From the sequence record NC_054896.1: DNA of 51,014 nt; one strand, given 5' to 3'. Shown here in pieces: positions 1 through 51,014 of the stretch. A program made the position numbers and the translations under genes. Numbering within the stretch: the first letter of the stretch is position 1; each line of letters starts with the position of its first letter. The notes below the pieces were generated by a model. The model made no database searches. It worked only from the letters and a program-made list of their open reading frames with translations, and was not told the origin of the DNA. The DNA is from Escherichia phage tiwna.

Positions 1-1
1 A

Positions 2-337
2 GCCTTGCGCGCTATTGGCCTGGACAACATTGTTTGCGCCTTTGACGATTCGCCGAACGTGGTTAAGCACTTCCGCAGATTGGGGATCACAACCTATCAG
101 GTCACGGAATACGACAAGCCACACGCTCACATACAATCTCACGGCGTGGAGTCAATAAAGATCACGAAGCGCGCCCGATTCGTTGGCAGCAAAGATAGCC
201 TTGTCAATGCCAGCTTTACCAGAGGAATAGCCTATGACGTTGTTTCTTATCATGACAAGAGTTTTATAGTTCATGATGATTCTGGATGCGCCTGGTCATT
301 CGATCATAGTGACGGCGATTTTGTTAATGCGGAGTAA
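2..337 (+). CDS. hypothetical protein, probably 5'-truncated at the window edge (no in-frame ATG)
   Basis: Open frame runs from the window start to a stop at 337; the next gene starts 7 nt later with an RBS. Confidence 0.3.
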   Translation, partial: ALRAIGLDNIVCAFDDSPNVVKHFRRLGITTYQVTEYDKPHAHIQSHGVESIKITKRARFVGSKDSLVNASFTRGIAYDVVSYHDKSFIVHDDSGCAWSFDHSDGDFVNAE

Positions 338-343
338 TTATAA

Positions 344-535
344 ATGGCTGACTTTATGCATCAAATGATTGTTGTATTTAAGGGCAGTGAAGATGAAGAG
401 GTTCGCGAATGCTTCACCATTGAGAAATCATACAGCGCATCTTTAACCAGTTTTGGCAACATATCTATGATTGATGATAATGGCGATCCGTGGATTTTTG
501 AAGATGATACGGATTGCTTTGAGATTAAAGAATAG
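344..535 (+). CDS. small acidic hypothetical protein (63 aa)
   Basis: ATG with upstream GGAG; D/E-rich product; its TAG stop is the first triplet of the conserved box at 533. Confidence 0.5.
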   Translation: MADFMHQMIVVFKGSEDEEVRECFTIEKSYSASLTSFGNISMIDDNGDPWIFEDDTDCFEIKE

Positions 536-550
536 CACTTTTTGCAAAAA
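533..550 (+). promoter_or_regulatory. conserved box (variant TTGCAAAAA) with -10 TATAGT at 570-575 in a hairpin loop
   Basis: TAGCACTTTTTGCAAAAA; hairpin gggcttgcggTATAGTaagccc. Confidence 0.5.
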
Positions 551-606
551 CAGATTATCGGGCTTGCGGTATAGTAAGCCCATCGACAACGAAAGAGGAA
601 GAGGCG

Positions 607-906
607 ATGTTAGTACGCAATGCGATCTATAAATTCACAAACGAGATGGGGGTTCACCTTTACCACGTAAACCATCAAGGCAACACCTCAATTGCGATGT
701 ATCGCGACGCTCGCGGGAAGTGTAGGCCTTCTCTTCGTGGCAGAATTTCTCCTGCGTTCTTCATGTTTAGATGGTATGCAACAGAACAAATCAACCATAA
801 CCATTGGAATAAAGTATTGATTGCAGGAGGCCGAATTGTTGCCAGTCACGTAGTCGATCCTTGCAAACTAACCAGCCGCCAGCTTCGCAAAATGGCGCGC
901 AAATAG
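607..906 (+). CDS. hypothetical protein (99 aa)
   Basis: RBS gaggaagagg before ATG; TAG stop embedded in the box at 904. Confidence 0.5.
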   Translation: MLVRNAIYKFTNEMGVHLYHVNHQGNTSIAMYRDARGKCRPSLRGRISPAFFMFRWYATEQINHNHWNKVLIAGGRIVASHVVDPCKLTSRQLRKMARK

Positions 907-921
907 CACTTTTTGTTAAAA
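904..921 (+). promoter_or_regulatory. conserved box with -10 TATAGT at 941-946 in a hairpin loop
   Basis: TAGCACTTTTTGTTAAAA; hairpin ggcctgcggTATAGTaggcc. Confidence 0.5.
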
Positions 922-977
922 TCAACTTTACGGCCTGCGGTATAGTAGGCCCATCAACAACAAACGAGGATTAAATC

Positions 978-1241
978 ATGGCTAACAAGATCGAATTTTT
1001 TAAAGCGGTAGACATTATCGACGGCGCGCCTAGCTTCTTCGCTATCCATTCTATTGACGGCAAGGATATTGGGTACAACGTTATCCGTCGAGATGGAATC
1101 TCAAAACTTAGTGACCTGGTAGGTCATGTTGTGTCAAACGGGAAGTGTGCATGGCCCGATTCGCCACGAGAGCCACGCCGCCGCGACATGGTAGAGCCTG
1201 TTCTGCTTTACACGCTGGTAGTAGAAGGAGAAAATAAATGA
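978..1241 (+). CDS. hypothetical protein (87 aa)
   Basis: RBS gagga before ATG; tight packing with the next gene. Confidence 0.5.
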   Translation: MANKIEFFKAVDIIDGAPSFFAIHSIDGKDIGYNVIRRDGISKLSDLVGHVVSNGKCAWPDSPREPRRRDMVEPVLLYTLVVEGENK

Positions 1242-1423
1242 TTTGGCTACTTGCTTTTTTGGTTGTTTTTCTTTACATTTCAGGCCTGTTTACGTTCCGA
1301 ACATTGGTGAAATATTCTGACGCGACAGACAAGGACGATAAAATAGTTCTCGCTTTCTGGTTTGTTTGGGTGTGGTTAGCAATTTACGAGATCATCAGAG
1401 ACAAACAGAAATTTGATTGGTGA
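1238..1423 (+). CDS. small membrane protein (61 aa)
   Basis: ATGA start/stop overlap with the upstream gene; hydrophobic stretch LLAFLVVFLYISGLF. Confidence 0.45.
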   Translation: MIWLLAFLVVFLYISGLFTFRTLVKYSDATDKDDKIVLAFWFVWVWLAIYEIIRDKQKFDW

Positions 1424-1479
1424 TTCTTGCTATGGCGCATTCATGCAGTGCGCCATGTTGAGAAAACCTAAAGGGGGAA

Positions 1480-1623
1480 ATGATGCGTAACTTTGAAAAA
1501 ATCGTTACCAAAAAGAAGCGTCGCGGATACGATGAGCATGTAGAGTTTGTGAACAAGCAACGCAAGAAGCGCCATAGGCGCGAAATGCTACATAATATCA
1601 ACTCACGCTACGGAGATCATTAA
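1480..1623 (+). CDS. small basic hypothetical protein (47 aa)
   Basis: Strong RBS aaggggg before ATGATG; K/R-rich; ends 3 nt before the kinase ATG. Below the 60-aa cutoff of the ORF track. Confidence 0.35.
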   Translation: MMRNFEKIVTKKKRRGYDEHVEFVNKQRKKRHRREMLHNINSRYGDH

Positions 1624-1625
1624 TC

Positions 1626-2216
1626 ATGAAACGAGACATTATTATCCTTAATGGGCCGCCTGGCTGTGGAAAGGACACTATTGCAGCTTACCTAACGGGC
1701 CATCGTTACCCAGCGGTCAAGGCGTCATTCAAACAGCCGATGTTCGATATTGCGTTTTCCATGCTGGGCGTGTACAGATACGATGAATTTATGGACCTGT
1801 ACAACGACCGAGAGCAAAAAGAAAAGCCTCAAGTTATCTTAGGCGGCAAGTCACCTCGACAATTCATGATCTGGATTAGCGAGGAGGTCATGAAGCCAGC
1901 ATTTGGGGAACAGTATTTCGGGCGTCGCATGGTTGAAGAGATTCACGAGATGTACCGAGATTTGACGGTTGTGATCAGTGATGGCGGATTCCCCGAAGAA
2001 ATCAAGCCGCTTGTTAAGGAAGGGCATGAAGTGCATATTTGCCGATTGCATCGCGACGGCTTCACGTTTGCTGGCGATTCGAGAGACTACATTGACCTGA
2101 GCGGTTATCACTATCGAATCCATCACTATGACTTCCAATTGCAGGACGGCAAGCCGGAAATGGCTGTAAACGAGATCGTCAATACGGTCAAATGGAAGCA
2201 CACACAGATTAAATAG
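1626..2216 (+). CDS. P-loop nucleotide kinase (dNMP kinase / polynucleotide kinase-like)
   Basis: N-terminal Walker A LNGPPGCGKDT; overall resemblance to phage dNMP/polynucleotide kinase N-termini; TAG stop inside the box at 2214. Confidence 0.5.
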   Translation: MKRDIIILNGPPGCGKDTIAAYLTGHRYPAVKASFKQPMFDIAFSMLGVYRYDEFMDLYNDREQKEKPQVILGGKSPRQFMIWISEEVMKPAFGEQYFGRRMVEEIHEMYRDLTVVISDGGFPEEIKPLVKEGHEVHICRLHRDGFTFAGDSRDYIDLSGYHYRIHHYDFQLQDGKPEMAVNEIVNTVKWKHTQIK

Positions 2217-2230
2217 CACGAATTGCTAAA
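2214..2230 (+). promoter_or_regulatory. conserved box (spacer variant CGAAT) with -10 TATAAT at 2251-2256
   Basis: TAGCACGAATTGCTAAA; half-sites TAGCA/TGCTA preserved despite the altered spacer. Confidence 0.5.
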
Positions 2231-2286
2231 CGCGGGGTTATCTGCCCCGCTATAATGCGCACATCAACAAGCAAGAGGAAATTACA

Positions 2287-33534: not shown

Positions 33535-35532
33535 ATGATTCCAAATATCGAAAAACAAATATCAGCGTTAGGCGAGGCAGTAATAAAAAGCATCCAAGAG
33601 CGATTCACTGTTGGCAATATAGTGCCTTATCCTTATCAGTGCGTTGCGTATGCCGAGATCGCAAAGCGCATGAAAAACTATGAGCATCCTTTCTTCGTTA
33701 AGGCTTCTGTGTCGGCTGGCAAAACTTTGATGTTTGCGATGGTTGCTGCGCAATGCCGCAAAATGGGATTGAAAATGATGGTCCTTGCTCGCCAGGCTGA
33801 AATTGTTGATCAGGATTCGGAAGAGATCAGCAATCTTGGCGTGCCAAACTCAATCTATTGCGCCGGACTGAAAACAAAAAGCGCATACTTTCCGATCGTA
33901 GTCGGTTCTGAGGGCACTGTAGTAAACGGATTGTTTAAGTCGTTAGGTGATTATGTTCCGCACGTTATCGGTATTGATGAATGTCACCAGGTGGATTGGG
34001 AGGATCTCGCCGACGCGATAGAAAATAATGAATCTTACCAGCAGATGACCACTAAGAAGGATTTGCCTGTACTGATTGGAGAAGAACAGCAATTTGATTC
34101 CAATGGCGATCCAATGTTCGGAACAGGGCGCGCACAGTACACCGTAATAATCATGGAAATGATGCGCAGGTGTCGCGAGGCATACGGGCACGAATTGCGA
34201 ATATTCGGTATGACTGGATCTGAATTTCGCGGCGTGGTTCCAATACTGGTTGAAGATAAGAACAAAAAGGGATTCTGGCGTGAGCAGGTGACTAACATAG
34301 ACACAAACTACTTAATCAAATTCGGTTCGGTAGTGCCAACAAATTTCGGCGACGTAGGCGACCTGGGGTATGACCTTTCAGAGTTCGAAGCCAGTAGCGA
34401 GGATGGCGTTTCAGACTTTGACGCTAAAACATTGCGCAAGATGGAAGAAAAAATCCATCAAGACGCAACAATGACACAGAAAATCATGGCTAAAGTCCAT
34501 GAGATATGCAAAGACAGGAACGGAGTTTTAGTTACATGCGCAGGGGAAAGGCACTGCAAGGAGGCCGCCGCCGCACTGCCGCCAGGCGTTGAATACAGGA
34601 TCATAACTGGCAAGACTGGAGATAATCAGCGTAAAGAGTGGCTAAGGGAGGCATACGAGGGAAAAGTAAAATACATCTTCCAGGTACAGGCGCTTACCAC
34701 TGGCGTTAACGTTCCGTTTTGGGATACTTCGGTAATACTGAGAAAGATAGGATCTCTAACATTGCTTATCCAGCTTTTGGGGCGCGGTATGCGACTGCTT
34801 AAGCAATGGCACATTGAGCAGGGATTCAAGAAAAAAGACCATCTTGTATTGGATTTTGCCGGTACTATGGATGAGTTAGGGGATTTGTATTTCGATCCAA
34901 TCCTTGAGCAAGCGCAATTCCAAAAGAGATTTACAAACGGGAAAGAGCCTAAGACTTGTCCGATATGTGGAACGCTAAACAGCTTTTACGCTCGCCGATG
35001 TATGCACGTAGACGATAACGGGAAGAGATGCGAGCATTTTTGGACTTACAGAATTTGCGAGGACCAGGTAGATCCGAGAACGAAAAAGATAATCAAGCGC
35101 GGTTGCGGAACAAAAAACGACGTAGTGGCGAGAGTTTGCCGTTGTTGCGATATTTCTCTTGTCGATCCTAACGAGAAGTTAAGCGGCAAGCACTACACCA
35201 AAAACGATTGGTGCAACGTTAAATCTTTCCGCGTTGATATGACGAAAAACCAGAAAGGAATTGTTTTTTGCTATGAGCTTGAGGCCAACGGCGACACGTT
35301 CAAGGCATACGAAAGATTTTTCCCTGAGTCAGAAAGCAACATTTGCCGGACGATATGGAGAAAAATAGCATTGCAGTACATACCGGATCGCAAGATTGCT
35401 GGTATGGTGGCGAGCTATAGAAATGCGCGTAAAATAATGTCATACGCTCATCACATCATGCCTCCTGTACGCGTAACGCATCGCAAAAACGGCAAAGGTG
35501 AGGATAACATTGCAAAACGGGAGTTTGTTTAA
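33535..35532 (+). CDS. superfamily 2 DNA helicase
   Basis: Walker A SAGKTLM, DExH box GIDECHQ, C-terminal Cys-rich zinc-ribbon-like segments; 665 aa. Confidence 0.7.
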   Translation: MIPNIEKQISALGEAVIKSIQERFTVGNIVPYPYQCVAYAEIAKRMKNYEHPFFVKASVSAGKTLMFAMVAAQCRKMGLKMMVLARQAEIVDQDSEEISNLGVPNSIYCAGLKTKSAYFPIVVGSEGTVVNGLFKSLGDYVPHVIGIDECHQVDWEDLADAIENNESYQQMTTKKDLPVLIGEEQQFDSNGDPMFGTGRAQYTVIIMEMMRRCREAYGHELRIFGMTGSEFRGVVPILVEDKNKKGFWREQVTNIDTNYLIKFGSVVPTNFGDVGDLGYDLSEFEASSEDGVSDFDAKTLRKMEEKIHQDATMTQKIMAKVHEICKDRNGVLVTCAGERHCKEAAAALPPGVEYRIITGKTGDNQRKEWLREAYEGKVKYIFQVQALTTGVNVPFWDTSVILRKIGSLTLLIQLLGRGMRLLKQWHIEQGFKKKDHLVLDFAGTMDELGDLYFDPILEQAQFQKRFTNGKEPKTCPICGTLNSFYARRCMHVDDNGKRCEHFWTYRICEDQVDPRTKKIIKRGCGTKNDVVARVCRCCDISLVDPNEKLSGKHYTKNDWCNVKSFRVDMTKNQKGIVFCYELEANGDTFKAYERFFPESESNICRTIWRKIALQYIPDRKIAGMVASYRNARKIMSYAHHIMPPVRVTHRKNGKGEDNIAKREFV

Positions 35533-35951
35533 TGGCTATAACTGATAAAGGCGATTATCTTGAGTTTTACGAAAGGGATCCAACCGACACGAGAAGGGAA
35601 GTTAATCACCAGATAGATAGTTTTCAGTGGTTGACTTATGCTCATCCTTATTTGCTGGCGTGGCATACGGTAAACGAGAATGAGAAGTCTAAAGCAACGG
35701 CGATGATTGATCAGCAGTCCGGCTTGGTTAAGGGAGTAAGCGATTTCATCATCCTGATTGGTTTAAACGGAAAATACCCCTTTGCAGCGATTGAGATCAA
35801 ACGAGTGAATAAATCAGGCAAGGGGAAAGCATCACCAGTCAGCGATGAACAAAAGGCTTTTTTGCGTCGCGTTCGCAGCTTAGGAGGATTCGCTGCGGTA
35901 GCCTACGGATTCAATCAGTTTAAGTTGGCTATTGAATACATGCTTAAATAG
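35532..35951 (+). CDS. VRR-NUC domain nuclease
   Basis: Motifs AIEIKR (E.K) and QKAFLRRVRSLGG typical of VRR-NUC; ATG overlaps the helicase stop. Confidence 0.5.
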   Translation: MAITDKGDYLEFYERDPTDTRREVNHQIDSFQWLTYAHPYLLAWHTVNENEKSKATAMIDQQSGLVKGVSDFIILIGLNGKYPFAAIEIKRVNKSGKGKASPVSDEQKAFLRRVRSLGGFAAVAYGFNQFKLAIEYMLK

Positions 35952-37506: not shown

Positions 37507-37600
37507 GGATAGTTATCATGTGGCGCTTGTTTGTTCTACCGTTACCCGTTATCATCGCTGTTACAGTTATGTACCATATAGTGATGAGATAGGTAGCAGA

Positions 37601-38716
37601 ATGAAAAATGTAAAAATTACAGATGAGCAATTCAAGATCGAACGGGCGGCAGGTAAGACATATAAACAGATCGCTCAAGAGTACGGAATGAATGTGAGAA
37701 GCGTCGAGCGTCGCGCGGCGCGTCTTGCAAAGCAAGGACAGTTATCGACCATCGGAGCGCCTGGTTTTGGTGTTCATGGTGAGTCAGTAATGACTGACAA
37801 AGAAGGAAATATAATCCTCAAGTGGACCAAAACCAGCAAGGATAAAGAGCAATTAGAGGCATTGATGCGCGCAGCAATGGAGGCATTTAGCGAGGAAGTG
37901 CCGCGATTAGATCCAGTTCCATTGCAGGAGCGTAACTATAATGAAACGCTTTCATTGTATCCGATCTTTGACATGCACTTAGGAGCTATGGCCCATAAGC
38001 ACGAATGCGGCGAAAATTGGGATACTGCGACGGCAGAGCGCGTTATGAATAACTTTATCGACTATGCTTTGATGTGCGCACCGGACAGCGAAAAGGCTGT
38101 TATCCTGATTGGTGGCGATATGCTGCATAGCGACGGCCTGGAGGCGGTGACACCTGCAAGCGGTCACGTACTTGATCAAGATAGCCGATATGCAAAATTG
38201 GTTTACGTTGCAATCCGTGCAATGCGTCGCGCAATTAATAAAATGCTGTTAAAGCATAAACATGTTGAGGTCCAGATCGTAGAGGGGAATCACGACCAAT
38301 CAGGAATGATTTGGCTACGCGCAGCAATGGCGGCAGCATATGAGAACGAGCCGCGCGTTTACGTTGATGTTTCTCCTCGCGTTGTTCACCACACGCAATA
38401 CGGAAAAACTTTCCTTGCGTACCATCACGGGCACACAGTGCGTAAACCGGAGACTTTGCTAATGATGTGCGCGTCAGATTGGCGGGAGGACTTCGGAAAC
38501 TCAAAAACGATGTATGCGCACGTAGGGCACTGGCATCACCAGACCGTGACAGAAACGTCGCTTGGCATCGTGGAGGTGCATAGCACCCTGGCGGCAAAAG
38601 ACGCATACGCCGCGCGAGGTGGCTGGAGATCTCGACGCCGTGCAGCGGTTATCATTTACGACAAAGAGCATGGAGAAGTCGGGCGATTTGTTCACTATCC
38701 AGAAATGATGAATTGA
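37601..38716 (+). CDS. calcineurin-like metallophosphoesterase with N-terminal HTH-like segment
   Basis: Motifs DMH, GGDMLH, GNHD, HHGH and GHWHH in canonical order; N-terminal KTYKQIAQEYGMNVRSVERRAARL; start could instead be upstream at 37451. Confidence 0.5.
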   Translation: MKNVKITDEQFKIERAAGKTYKQIAQEYGMNVRSVERRAARLAKQGQLSTIGAPGFGVHGESVMTDKEGNIILKWTKTSKDKEQLEALMRAAMEAFSEEVPRLDPVPLQERNYNETLSLYPIFDMHLGAMAHKHECGENWDTATAERVMNNFIDYALMCAPDSEKAVILIGGDMLHSDGLEAVTPASGHVLDQDSRYAKLVYVAIRAMRRAINKMLLKHKHVEVQIVEGNHDQSGMIWLRAAMAAAYENEPRVYVDVSPRVVHHTQYGKTFLAYHHGHTVRKPETLLMMCASDWREDFGNSKTMYAHVGHWHHQTVTETSLGIVEVHSTLAAKDAYAARGGWRSRRRAAVIIYDKEHGEVGRFVHYPEMMN

Positions 38717-45239: not shown

Positions 45240-45295
45240 CTTTAAATCCTCGCTTGTTTTCGATGGGTGTAATATACCATTCAGGCGCACATCGT

Positions 45296-45744: not shown

Positions 45745-45801
45745 TTCAAATCCTCGCATTCGTTGTCGATGCGTGTAATGTACAGGAATGCGAGGATTGA
45801 G

Positions 45802-47662: not shown

Positions 47663-47691
47663 TTGACACATTAAATAGCATTATTGATAAT
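47663..47691 (+). promoter_or_regulatory. near-consensus sigma70 promoter (TTGACA-17-GATAAT)
   Basis: -35 at 47663-47668 and -10 at 47686-47691, about 28 nt before the AGGAGG RBS of gene 47720. Confidence 0.6.
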
Positions 47692-47719
47692 GCCCACACC
47701 TAACAACCAGGAGGCAGAA

Positions 47720-48184
47720 ATGAGCGAGCAATCATTCACTGACACGCTGCGCCGTGCCGCTATTATGCTGGCTAATGGCGAGGAAGAGACGATCAAGATT
47801 CCTGACGCGTATTTGCAGGTCCACATGTTCGGCAAGAAGTCGGCAAGCAATCCGGCGGCCTACATTCGCCAGATCATGAGTCGAGTGCCAGAAGTCGCCG
47901 AGCGGGGGCGCGTATCCGTTACCCGTGGCGTTTACGGGCCGGAAGATGAAAACTTCGGTAGCACTTTCTACGAGGTGCGGATTGTTGAAGGCCGTCGCAA
48001 GGTTTACAACAAAGAGGCACTGGAAAGGGCAGTACGCCAGGCTAAGCGCAAGGTTGCAGAGGCGATCATTGATATGTCACCCAACCTGGCAAACTATGCG
48101 CCGGAAGAGTACGAAACATTATCAAAGGCCGTCGCTGACTTTCACGCGATGATCAAAAAAACTTTCCTGGAGGATGAGCAATGA
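47720..48184 (+). CDS. hypothetical protein (154 aa), likely immediate-early
   Basis: Consensus promoter plus AGGAGG RBS; internal ATG of track ORF 47684. Confidence 0.55.
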   Translation: MSEQSFTDTLRRAAIMLANGEEETIKIPDAYLQVHMFGKKSASNPAAYIRQIMSRVPEVAERGRVSVTRGVYGPEDENFGSTFYEVRIVEGRRKVYNKEALERAVRQAKRKVAEAIIDMSPNLANYAPEEYETLSKAVADFHAMIKKTFLEDEQ

Positions 48185-48998: not shown

Positions 48999-49889
48999 AT
49001 GTTAAAACTTACTGACATTAAATTCCCGATCACCTTCGAATCTCGCGGAGTTGGTCATTTCATGTTTACCGACGAGAAGACATGCACTAAGTTTAACGAA
49101 TACGGAAGTCCAAACGCTTCAACAATGGAGATTGAACACTTCATTGAAGCGCACAATAAACACTACAACTCACTCAGAGACTACGGTTACGCAATGCTAG
49201 GCTACACCTGTTTCCACTACAAGCCATATAAAGGCCAGGTGTTGCCAGTGCGCTCACCGGAACGCGTAGAGATTCCGATGGTCGAGATGAAAACCTGCGA
49301 CTATAAAAAATTGTGGCGCTTAAGTGTGGACAATATCAAGTATCCGATCACGTTCCGCTACGCTGGTAATTTAACGATTCGCTACACATCGCGCGACAAT
49401 GGCGTTTATAGCGGTGGTCAGAAATCAGAGCTTAAGGTGGATTTCTTTGTTAATGGTCATAATAAATACAATCCGCACAATGAAAAAGATAAGATTTACT
49501 ATGTGGAAGACATTACAAAACACTTGTTTGGAGAAACTCCATTCGGCGGCGGAAAGACGTCAATTCAAAAAATAATTGGCGAGGAGATCCACAAAGCGGC
49601 TGCCGAAATGAAAGCGCCTGGAGGCTGGCGTATTGATAAGAGCGCCTTTGCAAATCAAGAAATCGTAACGCAGGGCGCGATTGAAGATATGCCAGTTGCA
49701 GCCACGCTAAAAGGAGTCCGGCTTGATGATGGTGTGTGGTTTGAAGTAACGGCTACACCAAAGACGATCGAGATTCATGATGACGTTGTTATTCTTCTGC
49801 TTCACTACGGCGGCTATAAAAACCGGACGGTTGCAGGTGAGATCAGCATCAAGCGCGGAACGATGGTTAAGTGGAAGGTGAAGATTTGA
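48999..49889 (+). CDS. hypothetical protein with an internal tandem repeat (296 aa)
   Basis: RBS aggag; repeated segment IKFPITFESRG / IKYPITFRYAG. Confidence 0.5.
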   Translation: MLKLTDIKFPITFESRGVGHFMFTDEKTCTKFNEYGSPNASTMEIEHFIEAHNKHYNSLRDYGYAMLGYTCFHYKPYKGQVLPVRSPERVEIPMVEMKTCDYKKLWRLSVDNIKYPITFRYAGNLTIRYTSRDNGVYSGGQKSELKVDFFVNGHNKYNPHNEKDKIYYVEDITKHLFGETPFGGGKTSIQKIIGEEIHKAAAEMKAPGGWRIDKSAFANQEIVTQGAIEDMPVAATLKGVRLDDGVWFEVTATPKTIEIHDDVVILLLHYGGYKNRTVAGEISIKRGTMVKWKVKI

Positions 49890-50637: not shown

Positions 50638-51014
50638 ATGAAAAAATACACTTTCGAACTGTGGGGCAAGAAGTACGAATTAATGACCAGCAAGCCGATT
50701 GTTATCGTTGATCTGGACGGCACACTATCGGACGGATCGCATCGTTTGCATTTGCTGCCAACTGAAAACTTGCACCTTACGGAATCGTGGCGCGAGTTTA
50801 ACAGGGCCGCCGCCGGAGATTCACCAATTAAAAGCACTATCGCGGTTATTAACGGTTTATGGGTGTCGGGATTTGCCATCGTCATCTTGACCGGACGCAG
50901 CGACGAGGTGCGCTATGAAACCTGCAAATGGTTGAATGAGAACGGCGTGAAGTTTGACGAAATCATTATGCGCCGCCAGGAGGACAACCGAAAGGATACG
51001 GTTATTAAAGAAGA
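50638..51014 (+). CDS. HAD-family phosphatase (polynucleotide 3'-phosphatase-like), 3'-truncated at the window edge
   Basis: HAD motif I IVIVDLDGTL, followed by ILTGRSDE and RRQEDNRKDTVIKE, resembling the phosphatase domain of phage polynucleotide kinase/phosphatase. Confidence 0.5.
   Translation, partial: MKKYTFELWGKKYELMTSKPIVIVDLDGTLSDGSHRLHLLPTENLHLTESWREFNRAAAGDSPIKSTIAVINGLWVSGFAIVILTGRSDEVRYETCKWLNENGVKFDEIIMRRQEDNRKDTVIKE

What the first reader, a model, noticed from the sequence alone, without database searches (positions are those of the whole stretch)
1626..2216. Kinase and HAD phosphatase as separate genes at opposite window ends (split polynucleotide kinase/phosphatase-like end-healing pair)
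The P-loop kinase (1626..2216) and the truncated HAD phosphatase at 50638..51014 (DLDGTL, GRSDE, RKDTVIKE) resemble the two halves of phage polynucleotide kinase/phosphatase but are encoded separately. If the genome is circularly permuted they lie in the same early region. Together they could repair cleaved tRNAs or nucleic-acid ends damaged by host anticodon nucleases, yet no RNA ligase is evident. Alternatively the kinase is a dNMP kinase for nucleotide metabolism.
Basis: partly seen in the sequence, partly recalled or inferred. Interest (0 to 1): 0.5.

Follow-up and report, generated by a model that had tools for sequence, protein, structure and literature searches.

The report
Phage dNMP kinase plus kinase-less phosphatase
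The two genes are real and lie 1.3 kb apart on a circular T1-like phage genome, but the kinase belongs to the nucleotide (dNMP) kinase family, so the pair most likely feeds DNA-building-block supply rather than repairing cut tRNAs, and both genes are already routinely annotated in related phages.

Summary
The window is a complete, circularly permuted Drexlerviridae (Warwickvirus) genome opened inside the HAD gene. Joining 50638..51014 to 1..337 gives one intact 237-aa ORF, so the phosphatase is not truncated and ends 1.3 kb upstream of the kinase on the same strand.

The phosphatase is a true relative of the T4 Pnkp 3'-phosphatase domain, with the catalytic residues conserved, but it has no kinase domain. 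The common label "polynucleotide kinase" is a misnomer.

The two genes are linked. HAD lies upstream of the kinase in 61 of 80 related loci. They are abutting or overlapping in Webervirus and in Autographiviridae, and three protein clusters are natural HAD-kinase fusions.

The contexts point to nucleotide metabolism. Homologues sit in td-nrdA-nrdB operons, next to a MazG-like dNTP pyrophosphatase, and near thyA/nrdA. One such genome separately carries full pseT and rnlA. The window has no ligase.

Verdict: an ordinary, already-annotated gene pair, most likely a dNTP-supply module. The end-healing reading is not excluded but is not favoured.

The parts
50638..51014 (+). 5' part of the HAD phosphatase gene (aa 1-125 plus 2 nt of codon 126). 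Contains an N-terminal beta-hairpin, motif I D25-L-D27-G-T29, an invariant insert (HRLHLLPTE..LTESW), motif II/R87 (TGRSDE), and D120/K124 (RKDTVIKEE).
1..337 (+). 3' part of the same HAD gene (codon 126 completed by base 1; aa 127-237; stop at 335..337). Contains motif IV D141-D142 (FDDS), the conserved tail YDKPH..SHGVE, and an extra C-terminal small beta domain (aa ~178-237, window ~155..334).
   Evidence: read-through across the join; 237-aa homologues at 99% identity; gapless DNA alignment across the join; relatives lack ~180 nt here; 179-aa versus 237-aa forms; pLDDT ~90 for aa 181-237.
344..1623 (+). Five small same-strand ORFs between the HAD gene and the kinase gene (344..535, 607..906, 978..1241, 1238..1423, 1480..1623), with two copies of a repeated intergenic element at ~535-606 and ~905-977. 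The content of this spacer varies between relatives.
   Evidence: ORFs; sequence; repeat element at 570 and 941; the HAD-to-kinase gap ranges from -34 to 2072 nt across 61 loci.
1626..2216 (+). Kinase gene, 196 aa: a compact T4-gp1-type (d)NMP kinase. P-loop G10-PPGCGK16-D17-T18. Family-invariant residues S34, K36, R62, K65, E66, R78, S85, E86, K90, G120-G121-F122, E125 and D151-S152-R153-x-Y155; D119 is nearly invariant (at least 90% of sequences).
37598..38716 (+). PHROG 704 'DNA repair exonuclease' (weak N-terminal HTH plus a weak metallophosphoesterase signal). It is not adjacent to the pair here. In Webervirus its homologue lies directly upstream of HAD->kinase, and in the metagenomic phage L004 it lies directly downstream of the HAD-kinase fusion. 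In Autographiviridae the corresponding upstream slot holds a different metallophosphoesterase (PHROG 221 in ZPAH7).
   Evidence: Pfam Sigma70_r4_2 0.0018 and Metallophos 0.01. PHROG 704, 7e-149 for the window protein; PHROG 221 for the ZPAH7 phosphoesterase; nuclease/phosphoesterase->HAD->kinase cassettes; the fusion gene is followed by a PHROG 704 gene.

Best explanation
The two genes are separate members of a conserved phage nucleotide-supply module. They are not the two halves of a T4-type polynucleotide kinase/phosphatase.

Gene 1626..2216 encodes a compact T4-gp1-type deoxynucleoside monophosphate kinase. It uses ATP to convert dNMPs to dNDPs, and host nucleoside diphosphate kinase then makes dNTPs. 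T1-like phages are known to degrade the host chromosome and reuse its nucleotides, and they encode no DNA polymerase or reductase of their own.

The gene that spans the window join (50638..51014 + 1..337) encodes a kinase-less, Mg-dependent HAD phosphomonoesterase of the Pnkp-phosphatase clade. It forms an aspartyl-phosphate on D25, with D27 as the acid/base. It acts on nucleotide or oligonucleotide phosphomonoesters in the same pathway, most likely 3'-phosphates on DNA-breakdown products or 3'-dNMPs. That would make them usable by exonucleases and the kinase, or trim the pool.

Shown here: family membership, folds, catalytic residues, gene linkage, fusions and genomic contexts.
Inferred: the substrates, the 3' versus 5' specificity of the phosphatase, and the pathway role.
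For: Kinase:
- PHROG 139 'dNMP kinase' at 2e-50. T4 gp1 hits the same PHROG and the same profile region, whereas T4 Pnkp hits PHROG 505/415 and never 139.
- The named BFVD matches are mostly 'deoxynucleoside monophosphate kinase', and none of the top 50 is named polynucleotide kinase.
- hhalign aligns 73 columns to gp1 (P-loop, DRE, LNGKSP) but only the 23-column P-loop to T4 Pnkp.
- Matching the conserved motifs of the family alignment by eye to gp1 places R62, R78, D119, E125 and D151 opposite the gp1 dNMP-site residues R68, R132, D175, E181 and D204. Only R62/R68 lies inside the hhalign alignment. The gp1 residue list comes from Table 2 of PMC10653934, and the gp1 sequence was checked against it.

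Phosphatase.

Linkage:
- HAD lies upstream of the kinase on the same strand in 61 of 80 IMG/VR loci.
- The genes overlap in Webervirus and in Melnykvirinae podoviruses.
- There are three fusion clusters: P0258, P0387 and P0262.

Nucleotide-metabolism context:
- In Krischvirus GEC-3S, a HAD 47.7% identical to this one is the last gene of td-nrdA-nrdB, with a 4-nt overlap with nrdB. The same genome has full pseT and rnlA elsewhere.
- In phage glasur, the slot after HAD holds a dATP/dGTP diphosphohydrolase-like (MazG-type) protein, Pfam 3e-34.
- In Klebsiella phage Iguana, the kinase homologue lies between a DNA-polymerase exonuclease subunit and thyA/nrdA. It is followed by another HAD-like ORF (PHROG 420, with a weak NT5C hit).

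Host DNA reuse by T1 and TLS is cited in PMC11447400. PMC13164509 also reads the two genes as nucleotide supply.
Against: - No member of this kinase subfamily or of this stand-alone HAD subfamily has been assayed, as far as the searchable literature shows.
- By motif matching, two gp1 dNMP-phosphate ligands are not conserved in place: gp1 K37 corresponds to F40, and gp1 R177 to G121. Invariant K36 and R153 are only guessed to compensate.
- The phosphatase's closest solved relatives are RNA/DNA end-healing enzymes.
- A fused HAD-kinase, and a metallophosphoesterase nuclease next to the pair, would also fit a DNA-end-processing enzyme.
- A kinase together with a phosphatase in one pool pathway needs distinct substrate specificities that I cannot show.
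- 19 of 80 kinase loci lack a HAD. Many phages (P1 Pap, for example) have the HAD alone, so the two are not obligate partners.
- Most of the 80 loci are Drexlerviridae, so the synteny count is not phylogenetically independent.
Confidence: 0.55

Rival explanations
1. Split end-healing enzyme. The HAD removes 3'-phosphates (or 2',3'-cyclic phosphates) and the kinase phosphorylates 5'-OH ends of cleaved tRNA/RNA or nicked DNA. Together they would form a PNKP analogue built with a gp1-like kinase. Sealing would be left to a host ligase (LigA for DNA), or the phosphorylated ends would be used to speed RNA decay.
For: - The HAD is a true Pnkp-phosphatase homologue with all catalytic residues.
- The two genes are linked, and in rare cases fused in the order phosphatase-kinase. 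From my own knowledge, mammalian PNKP has the same order.
- A metallophosphoesterase nuclease is often the neighbouring gene, which suggests DNA-end processing.
- An anticodon-nuclease-repair role for the T1-like 'polynucleotide kinase' has been suggested in a genome announcement (PMC4319613).
Against: - The kinase shares only the P-loop with Pnk-type kinases. No counterpart of T4 D35/R38 was identified. Its best structural and profile matches are dNMP kinases.
- There is no RNA or DNA ligase in the window or in its close relative.
- No Stp-like peptide was found.
- Converting ends to 3'-OH/5'-P would block the host RtcB pathway (my own knowledge).
- A genome with a complete pseT + rnlA set still carries this HAD subfamily, inside the nrdAB operon.
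Confidence: 0.15
2. The two genes have unrelated functions, and the linkage is only inherited synteny. The kinase is a dNMP kinase. The HAD does something else, for example acting as a general acid phosphatase like P1 Pap, or degrading a phosphorylated host signal or defence molecule.
For: - Each gene occurs without the other: 19 of 80 kinase loci lack a HAD, while P1 Pap, Krischvirus and glasur have the HAD without this kinase.
- In the window they are separated by five ORFs and by two copies of a repeated intergenic element.
- Most linked loci belong to one family, Drexlerviridae.
Against: - Adjacency with overlapping stop/start codons recurs in unrelated lineages: siphoviral Webervirus and podoviral Melnykvirinae.
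- Fusions persist across lineages only 37% identical.
- A second kinase-HAD-like pairing, with a different HAD family, occurs in phage Iguana.
Confidence: 0.2

Closest known systems
Bacteriophage T4 gp1 deoxynucleotide (dNMP) kinase (PDB 1DEK/1DEL); PHROG 139. From my own knowledge, phage T5 Dnk is the other assayed phage dNMP kinase; its similarity to this protein was not tested here.
   Different: It is 45 aa shorter, and gp1 residues ~96-129 look like an insertion missing here. Only 16% identity in the structural alignment. No hit by phmmer or hmmsearch against PDB sequences. By motif matching, gp1 R11, K37 and R177 are not conserved in place. The substrate range is unknown.
Phosphatase domain of T4 polynucleotide kinase/phosphatase (PseT; PDB 1LTQ, 5UJ0) and of Capnocytophaga Pnkp1 (4XRP); Pfam PF25109 HAD_PNKP
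   Different: There is no kinase domain in the polypeptide. It has an extra N-terminal beta-hairpin. It has a longer, invariant but low-confidence insert after motif I (aa 28-55, pLDDT below 50). In this phage it also has an extra C-terminal small beta domain. No ligase partner is present.
Stand-alone phage HAD phosphatases of PHROG 415, usually annotated 'polynucleotide kinase', '3'-phosphatase' or 'HAD-superfamily hydrolase' (for example the P1 Pap homologue, the Krischvirus nrdB-linked gene, TLS Gp09)
   Same: Same family and domain content. 39.6% identity to P1 Pap and 47.7% to the Krischvirus protein. This is what the window gene is.
   Different: The window copy carries the additional C-terminal domain. 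None of these proteins appears to have been characterised biochemically in the literature I could search.
Mammalian PNKP (domain order FHA - HAD phosphatase - kinase). This comparison rests on my own knowledge and was not tested here.
   Same: The rare natural fusions P0258, P0387 and P0262 have the order phosphatase-then-kinase.
   Different: The PNKP kinase is Pnk-type, whereas the kinase here is gp1-type. No FHA domain is present. In the window the genes are separate.

Membership tests
T4-type bifunctional polynucleotide kinase/phosphatase (Pnkp/PseT) | C-terminal HAD (DxDxT) 3'-phosphatase domain homologous to T4 Pnkp aa ~160-301, with the catalytic Asp/Arg/Lys set | tested here: met
T4-type bifunctional polynucleotide kinase/phosphatase (Pnkp/PseT) | P-loop 5'-OH polynucleotide kinase domain homologous to T4 Pnk aa 1-150 (PHROG 505 / AAA_33 type, with Asp35 as general base and Arg38) | tested here: not met
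T4-type bifunctional polynucleotide kinase/phosphatase (Pnkp/PseT) | Kinase and phosphatase in one polypeptide (kinase N-terminal) | tested here: not met
   They are separate genes 1.3 kb apart. The rare fusions in other phages have the reverse order.
T4-type bifunctional polynucleotide kinase/phosphatase (Pnkp/PseT) | A partner RNA ligase (Rnl1/Rnl2) encoded by the same genome, giving a healing-and-sealing pathway | tested here: not met
   No ligase is annotated in the whole genome of the close relative MikeNSara. There are no ligase domains in the larger unannotated window ORFs.
T4-type bifunctional polynucleotide kinase/phosphatase (Pnkp/PseT) | 5'-OH kinase and 3'-phosphatase activity on polynucleotides | not testable with these tools
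   Needs enzyme assays.
gp1-type phage dNMP kinase (PHROG 139; T4 gp1, PDB 1DEK) | Profile-level membership and the GxxxxGK[DS]T P-loop | tested here: met
   PHROG 139 at 2.1e-50, the same profile span as gp1. The P-loop is GPPGCGKDT.
gp1-type phage dNMP kinase (PHROG 139; T4 gp1, PDB 1DEK) | Same fold as 1DEK (P-loop core, helical NMP-binding domain, lid) | tested here: met
gp1-type phage dNMP kinase (PHROG 139; T4 gp1, PDB 1DEK) | Conservation of the gp1 dNMP-binding residues (K37, R68, R132, R177, D175, E181, D204, H206) | tested here: inconclusive
   By motif matching, R62/R68, R78/R132, D119/D175, E125/E181 and D151/D204 are conserved, and H206 corresponds to R153. But K37 corresponds to F40 and R177 to G121. 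Only R62/R68 lies inside the hhalign alignment. No superposed coordinates were available to check for compensation by K36 and R153.
gp1-type phage dNMP kinase (PHROG 139; T4 gp1, PDB 1DEK) | ATP:dNMP phosphotransferase activity | not testable with these tools
   Needs enzyme assays. A prophage homologue of gp1 (P. putida PP_1964) supplies thymidylate kinase activity in vivo (PMC10653934), but I did not test how close it is to this protein.
Stand-alone HAD_PNKP phosphatase (PHROG 415) | HAD_PNKP domain with the four HAD motifs and no kinase domain | tested here: met
   PHROG 415 at 3.5e-67. Pfam finds only HAD families in the 237-aa protein. The invariant D25, D27, T29, R87, K124, D141, D142 and the nearly invariant D120 are seen across 23 homologues.

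The most novel reading that the evidence does not exclude
The HAD and the gp1-like kinase (separate here, fused in P0258, P0387 and P0262) could be a second, independently assembled PNKP-type enzyme. In it, a dNMP-kinase scaffold would have been recruited to phosphorylate the 5'-OH of nucleoside 3'-phosphates or polynucleotide ends, with the HAD then removing the 3'-phosphate. This would either heal DNA/RNA ends without a phage ligase, or convert 3'-dNMPs from host DNA breakdown into usable 5'-dNMPs.
Probability: 0.12. Interest if true: 0.6.

Novelty: new member of a known kind. Interest (0 to 1): 0.3.

Why it matters
For this window the practical result is a correction. The gene that public records mostly name 'polynucleotide kinase' (its HAD domain matched 2,508 phage records in the tblastn search, including true T4-type PseT genes) has no kinase domain. 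Its neighbour is a gp1-type dNMP kinase. The pair should therefore not be read as a tRNA-repair counter-defence system.

More broadly, the recurrent HAD-kinase linkage, the rare fusions, and the repeated association with nrdAB, td/thyA, a MazG-like pyrophosphatase and a metallophosphoesterase nuclease mark out an uncharacterised, widespread phage nucleotide-salvage module. T1-like phages recycle the host chromosome, and the enzymes responsible have not been identified (PMC11447400). These two proteins are cheap, testable candidates.

Tried and rejected
- Sequence searches of the kinase against PDB, with a single sequence and with a 24-sequence profile, gave only P-loop matches. Pfam and NCBIfam gave nothing above cut-off. 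The fold search was needed to place the kinase.
- hhalign against single T4 sequences gave only short alignments. The residue correspondences beyond column 78 are by motif matching, not by superposition.
- A search for a T4 Stp-like peptide, suggested for T1-like phages in PMC4319613, found nothing significant.
- The generic sigma-70 and terminator scans around both genes were no better than shuffled sequence. I make no claim about transcription units beyond the repeated intergenic element. Its TTGnnA-to-TATAGT spacing is 22 nt, too long for a canonical promoter.
- The ORF upstream of the kinase homologue in Kuravirus 4E8 was tested as a possible hidden HAD, and it is not one.
- Literature searches found no biochemical or genetic study of either protein subfamily. 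The retron Eco2 paper mentions Drexlerviridae only as insensitive phages.
- The 1996 gp1 structure paper could not be fetched. The gp1 functional residues were taken from Table 2 of PMC10653934 instead.
gp1 was validated at 32 positions against that table. Pnkp aa 202-298 matches the alignment printed, but its N-terminal kinase part is validated only by its 1e-125 full-length match to PHROG 505.

Full report
**What is in the sequence.**
The window (51,014 nt, 44.6% G+C) is 94-97% identical over its first 3 kb to the Escherichia phages atuna, FritzSarasin (Bas04) and MikeNSara. These are Drexlerviridae, subfamily Tempevirinae, genus Warwickvirus.

The ORF at 1626..2216 (+) encodes 196 aa with a P-loop, LNGPPGCGKDT. 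The ORF that starts at 50638 carries DLDGTL, GRSDE and RKDTVIKE and runs off the window end.

Joining the last 377 nt to the start of the window gives one uninterrupted 237-aa ORF with its stop at 335..337. Three results confirm that the join is real:
- 237-aa proteins at 99% identity occur on ~50 kb contigs.
- The joined DNA aligns without a single gap across the join to related phages, for example 98.1% over 825 nt.
- The close relatives carry the HAD gene intact inside their records.

The window is therefore a complete, circularly permuted genome that happens to be opened inside the phosphatase gene. The phosphatase ends 1.3 kb upstream of the kinase on the same strand. Five small ORFs lie between them.

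**The phosphatase.**
The protein matches Pfam HAD_PNKP (PF25109, 6e-21, aa 21-162) and PHROG 415 (3.5e-67).

By sequence alone it finds the phosphatase domains of Capnocytophaga Pnkp1 (4XRP, 1.2e-6) and T4 Pnkp (5UJ0 at 1.5e-6, 1LTQ at 1e-5).

T4 residues D165, D167, T169, R213, D254, K258, D277 and D278 align with D25, D27, T29, R87, D120, K124, D141 and D142. All but D120 are invariant in the family, and D120 is conserved in at least 90% of sequences. That these are the essential T4 residues is from my own knowledge of the Shuman laboratory's mutagenesis.

The polypeptide has no kinase domain. The frequent database names 'polynucleotide kinase' and "3'-phosphatase, 5'-polynucleotide kinase" are transferred from T4 PseT and are misnomers.

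Three features are peculiar to this protein:
- an N-terminal beta-hairpin;
- an invariant but low-confidence insert after motif I (aa 28-55);
- in this phage, an additional small, confidently predicted beta domain at aa ~178-237. Many relatives lack it (179-aa form) or replace it with a CxxC zinc-ribbon.

**The kinase.**
Pfam, NCBIfam and PDB sequence searches see only the P-loop. PHROGs places the protein in family 139, 'deoxynucleoside monophosphate kinase' (2.1e-50, profile positions 81-261).

T4 gp1 hits the same family over the same profile span (1.8e-65, positions 83-261). T4 Pnkp goes to PHROG 505/415 and never to 139.

Against predicted viral structures, the named hits are mostly 'deoxynucleoside monophosphate kinase'.

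hhalign aligns the family profile to gp1 from the P-loop through the DRE and LNGKSP motifs (73 columns). It aligns to T4 Pnkp over the P-loop only (23 columns).

I used the gp1 ligand list in Table 2 of PMC10653934 and matched motifs in the family alignment by eye. Only the first pair below lies inside the hhalign alignment.
- gp1 R68, R132, D175, E181 and D204 correspond to R62, R78, D119, E125 and D151. All are invariant in the family except D119, which is nearly so.
- gp1 K37 and R177 correspond to F40 and G121. They are not conserved in place. Invariant K36 and R153 might substitute, but I could not superpose coordinates to check.

The protein is thus a compact gp1-type kinase, about 45 aa shorter. 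gp1 residues ~96-129 look like an insertion that it lacks.

The family is large: 4,004 clusters at 50% identity with E<=1e-3, and tblastn matches in 1,462 phage records.

**Are the two genes a pair?**
Yes, in the evolutionary sense.
- Among 80 IMG/VR loci recovered with the kinase family, 61 have a HAD homologue. It is always upstream and on the same strand, with a gap of -34 to 2,072 nt (median 696). The other 19 have none within the flanks held.
- In Klebsiella Webervirus the order is nuclease (PHROG 704) -> HAD -> kinase, with a 4-nt overlap between HAD and kinase.
- In podoviruses of Autographiviridae/Melnykvirinae (Aeromonas ZPAH7, Klebsiella K59PH2), a metallophosphoesterase occupies the slot upstream of overlapping HAD and kinase genes. 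This cassette sits between endonuclease VII and the RNA polymerase gene. In ZPAH7 that phosphoesterase is PHROG 221, not 704.
- Three protein clusters are natural fusions: an N-terminal HAD_PNKP, a linker, and a C-terminal kinase of this family. They are P0258 (403 aa, on three contigs), P0387 (74% identical to P0258) and P0262 (461 aa, 37% identical). In the 60-kb phage carrying P0258, the next gene is a PHROG 704 nuclease.

The domain order, phosphatase then kinase, is the reverse of T4 Pnkp.

Each gene also occurs alone (P1 Pap; the 19 HAD-less loci), so the partnership is not obligatory.

**What the pair most likely does.**
Genomic contexts outside Drexlerviridae point consistently to nucleotide metabolism.
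- In Krischvirus GEC-3S, a HAD 47.7% identical to the window protein is the last gene of the thymidylate synthase-nrdA-nrdB cluster and overlaps nrdB by 4 nt. The same genome has a full-length pseT and rnlA a few kb away. This HAD subfamily is therefore kept in addition to the canonical RNA-repair pair, and is placed with ribonucleotide reductase.
- In Bonnellvirus glasur, the slot after HAD is filled by a dATP/dGTP-diphosphohydrolase-like (MazG-type) protein instead of the kinase (Pfam 3.3e-34).
- In Klebsiella phage Iguana, the kinase homologue lies between a DNA-polymerase exonuclease subunit and thyA/nrdA. It is followed by an overlapping ORF of PHROG 420, a family that both the window HAD and T4's HAD hit weakly, with a sub-threshold NT5C match.

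T1 and TLS degrade the host chromosome and reuse its nucleotides, and the responsible early enzymes are unidentified (PMC11447400). T1-like phages encode no polymerase, reductase or ligase.

I therefore favour a nucleotide-supply module. The kinase turns breakdown-derived dNMPs into dNDPs. The HAD removes phosphomonoesters, most plausibly 3'-phosphates, from breakdown products or mononucleotides. The 3' preference is inferred from its kinship to the T4 enzyme, which from my own knowledge also acts on 3'-dNMPs. The authors of PMC13164509 reached the same general reading from PHROG labels alone.

Family membership, folds, active-site residues, linkage and contexts are shown here. Substrates and pathway are inferred.

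**Rivals.**
The end-healing reading keeps some weight for three reasons: the HAD's nearest characterised relatives heal nucleic-acid ends, the fusions mimic a PNKP, and a nuclease is a frequent neighbour.

Against it:
- The kinase's family is the dNMP-kinase family.
- There is no ligase.
- There is no Stp-like peptide.
- The HAD subfamily coexists with a full pseT + rnlA set.

A third possibility is that the two proteins have unrelated functions and merely share inherited synteny. The cross-family adjacency and the fusions argue against that, but the sample is dominated by one phage family.

**Novelty and verdict.**
Both genes are present and annotated in many sequenced T1-like phages. The tRNA-repair idea has been voiced before, and so has the nucleotide-supply idea. 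Neither protein subfamily appears to have been assayed.

The window feature is an ordinary member of known families.

The recurrent HAD-kinase linkage, the rare fusions and the association with nucleotide-metabolism genes are modestly interesting leads. They would be cheap to test.

Noticed in passing
window ~535-606, ~905-977, ~2213-2286 (+); ~45257-45276 and ~45763-45782 (-): A repeated ~70-nt intergenic cassette. It begins at the stop codon of the preceding ORF (AAATAGCAC). It contains TTGnnA, a short GC hairpin overlapping TATAGT/TATAAT, then CATCRACAA and a Shine-Dalgarno sequence before the next ATG. The core pattern gives 6 hits against 0.45 expected (five are convincing). The TTGnnA-to-TATAGT spacing is 22 nt, too long for a canonical sigma-70 promoter. 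It resembles the promoter-stem-loop cassettes that flank small genes in the plastic regions of T4-type phages (my own knowledge).
   Followed up: partly
window 155..334 (aa ~178-237 of the HAD protein): The extra C-terminal small beta domain of the phosphatase is confidently predicted (pLDDT ~90). It is absent from many close relatives, which have a ~180-nt deletion here. Elsewhere in Drexlerviridae early regions it occurs as free-standing ~63-aa ORFs and inside ~212-aa ORFs. Some relatives carry a CxxC...CxxC zinc-ribbon at the same place. Its function is unknown.
   Followed up: partly
HAD protein aa 28-55 (window 50719..50802): The insert after HAD motif I (GxHRLHLLPTxxLHLTESWxEFN) is nearly invariant across 23 homologues and is kept in the natural HAD-kinase fusions. 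Yet it is predicted with pLDDT below 50. It may be a cap or a partner/substrate-binding segment that orders only on binding.
   Followed up: no
window 37598..38716 (+): The PHROG 704 'DNA repair exonuclease' combines a weak N-terminal sigma-70 region-4-like HTH with a weak calcineurin-type phosphoesterase signal. Its homologues flank the HAD-kinase pair or fusion in Webervirus and in the metagenomic phage L004. Autographiviridae carry a different metallophosphoesterase (PHROG 221 in ZPAH7) in the same slot.
   Followed up: partly
window 33535..35951 (+): A 665-aa ResIII/SNF2-type helicase is followed by a 139-aa VRR-NUC nuclease. Both are annotated only as hypothetical proteins in the close relative MikeNSara.
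   Followed up: no
window 47684..48184 (+) and 48999..49889 (+): The first ORFs of the rightward early block are a DUF7174 protein (2e-28) and a 296-aa protein with no Pfam match.
   Followed up: no
BFVD entry A0A6J5RPH7 (uncultured Caudovirales phage), found with the kinase model: A 297-aa protein named 'nucleoside 2-deoxyribosyltransferase' matches the kinase fold over about half its length (E 1.1e-8). It may be another fusion of this kinase family with a nucleotide-metabolism domain.
   Followed up: no
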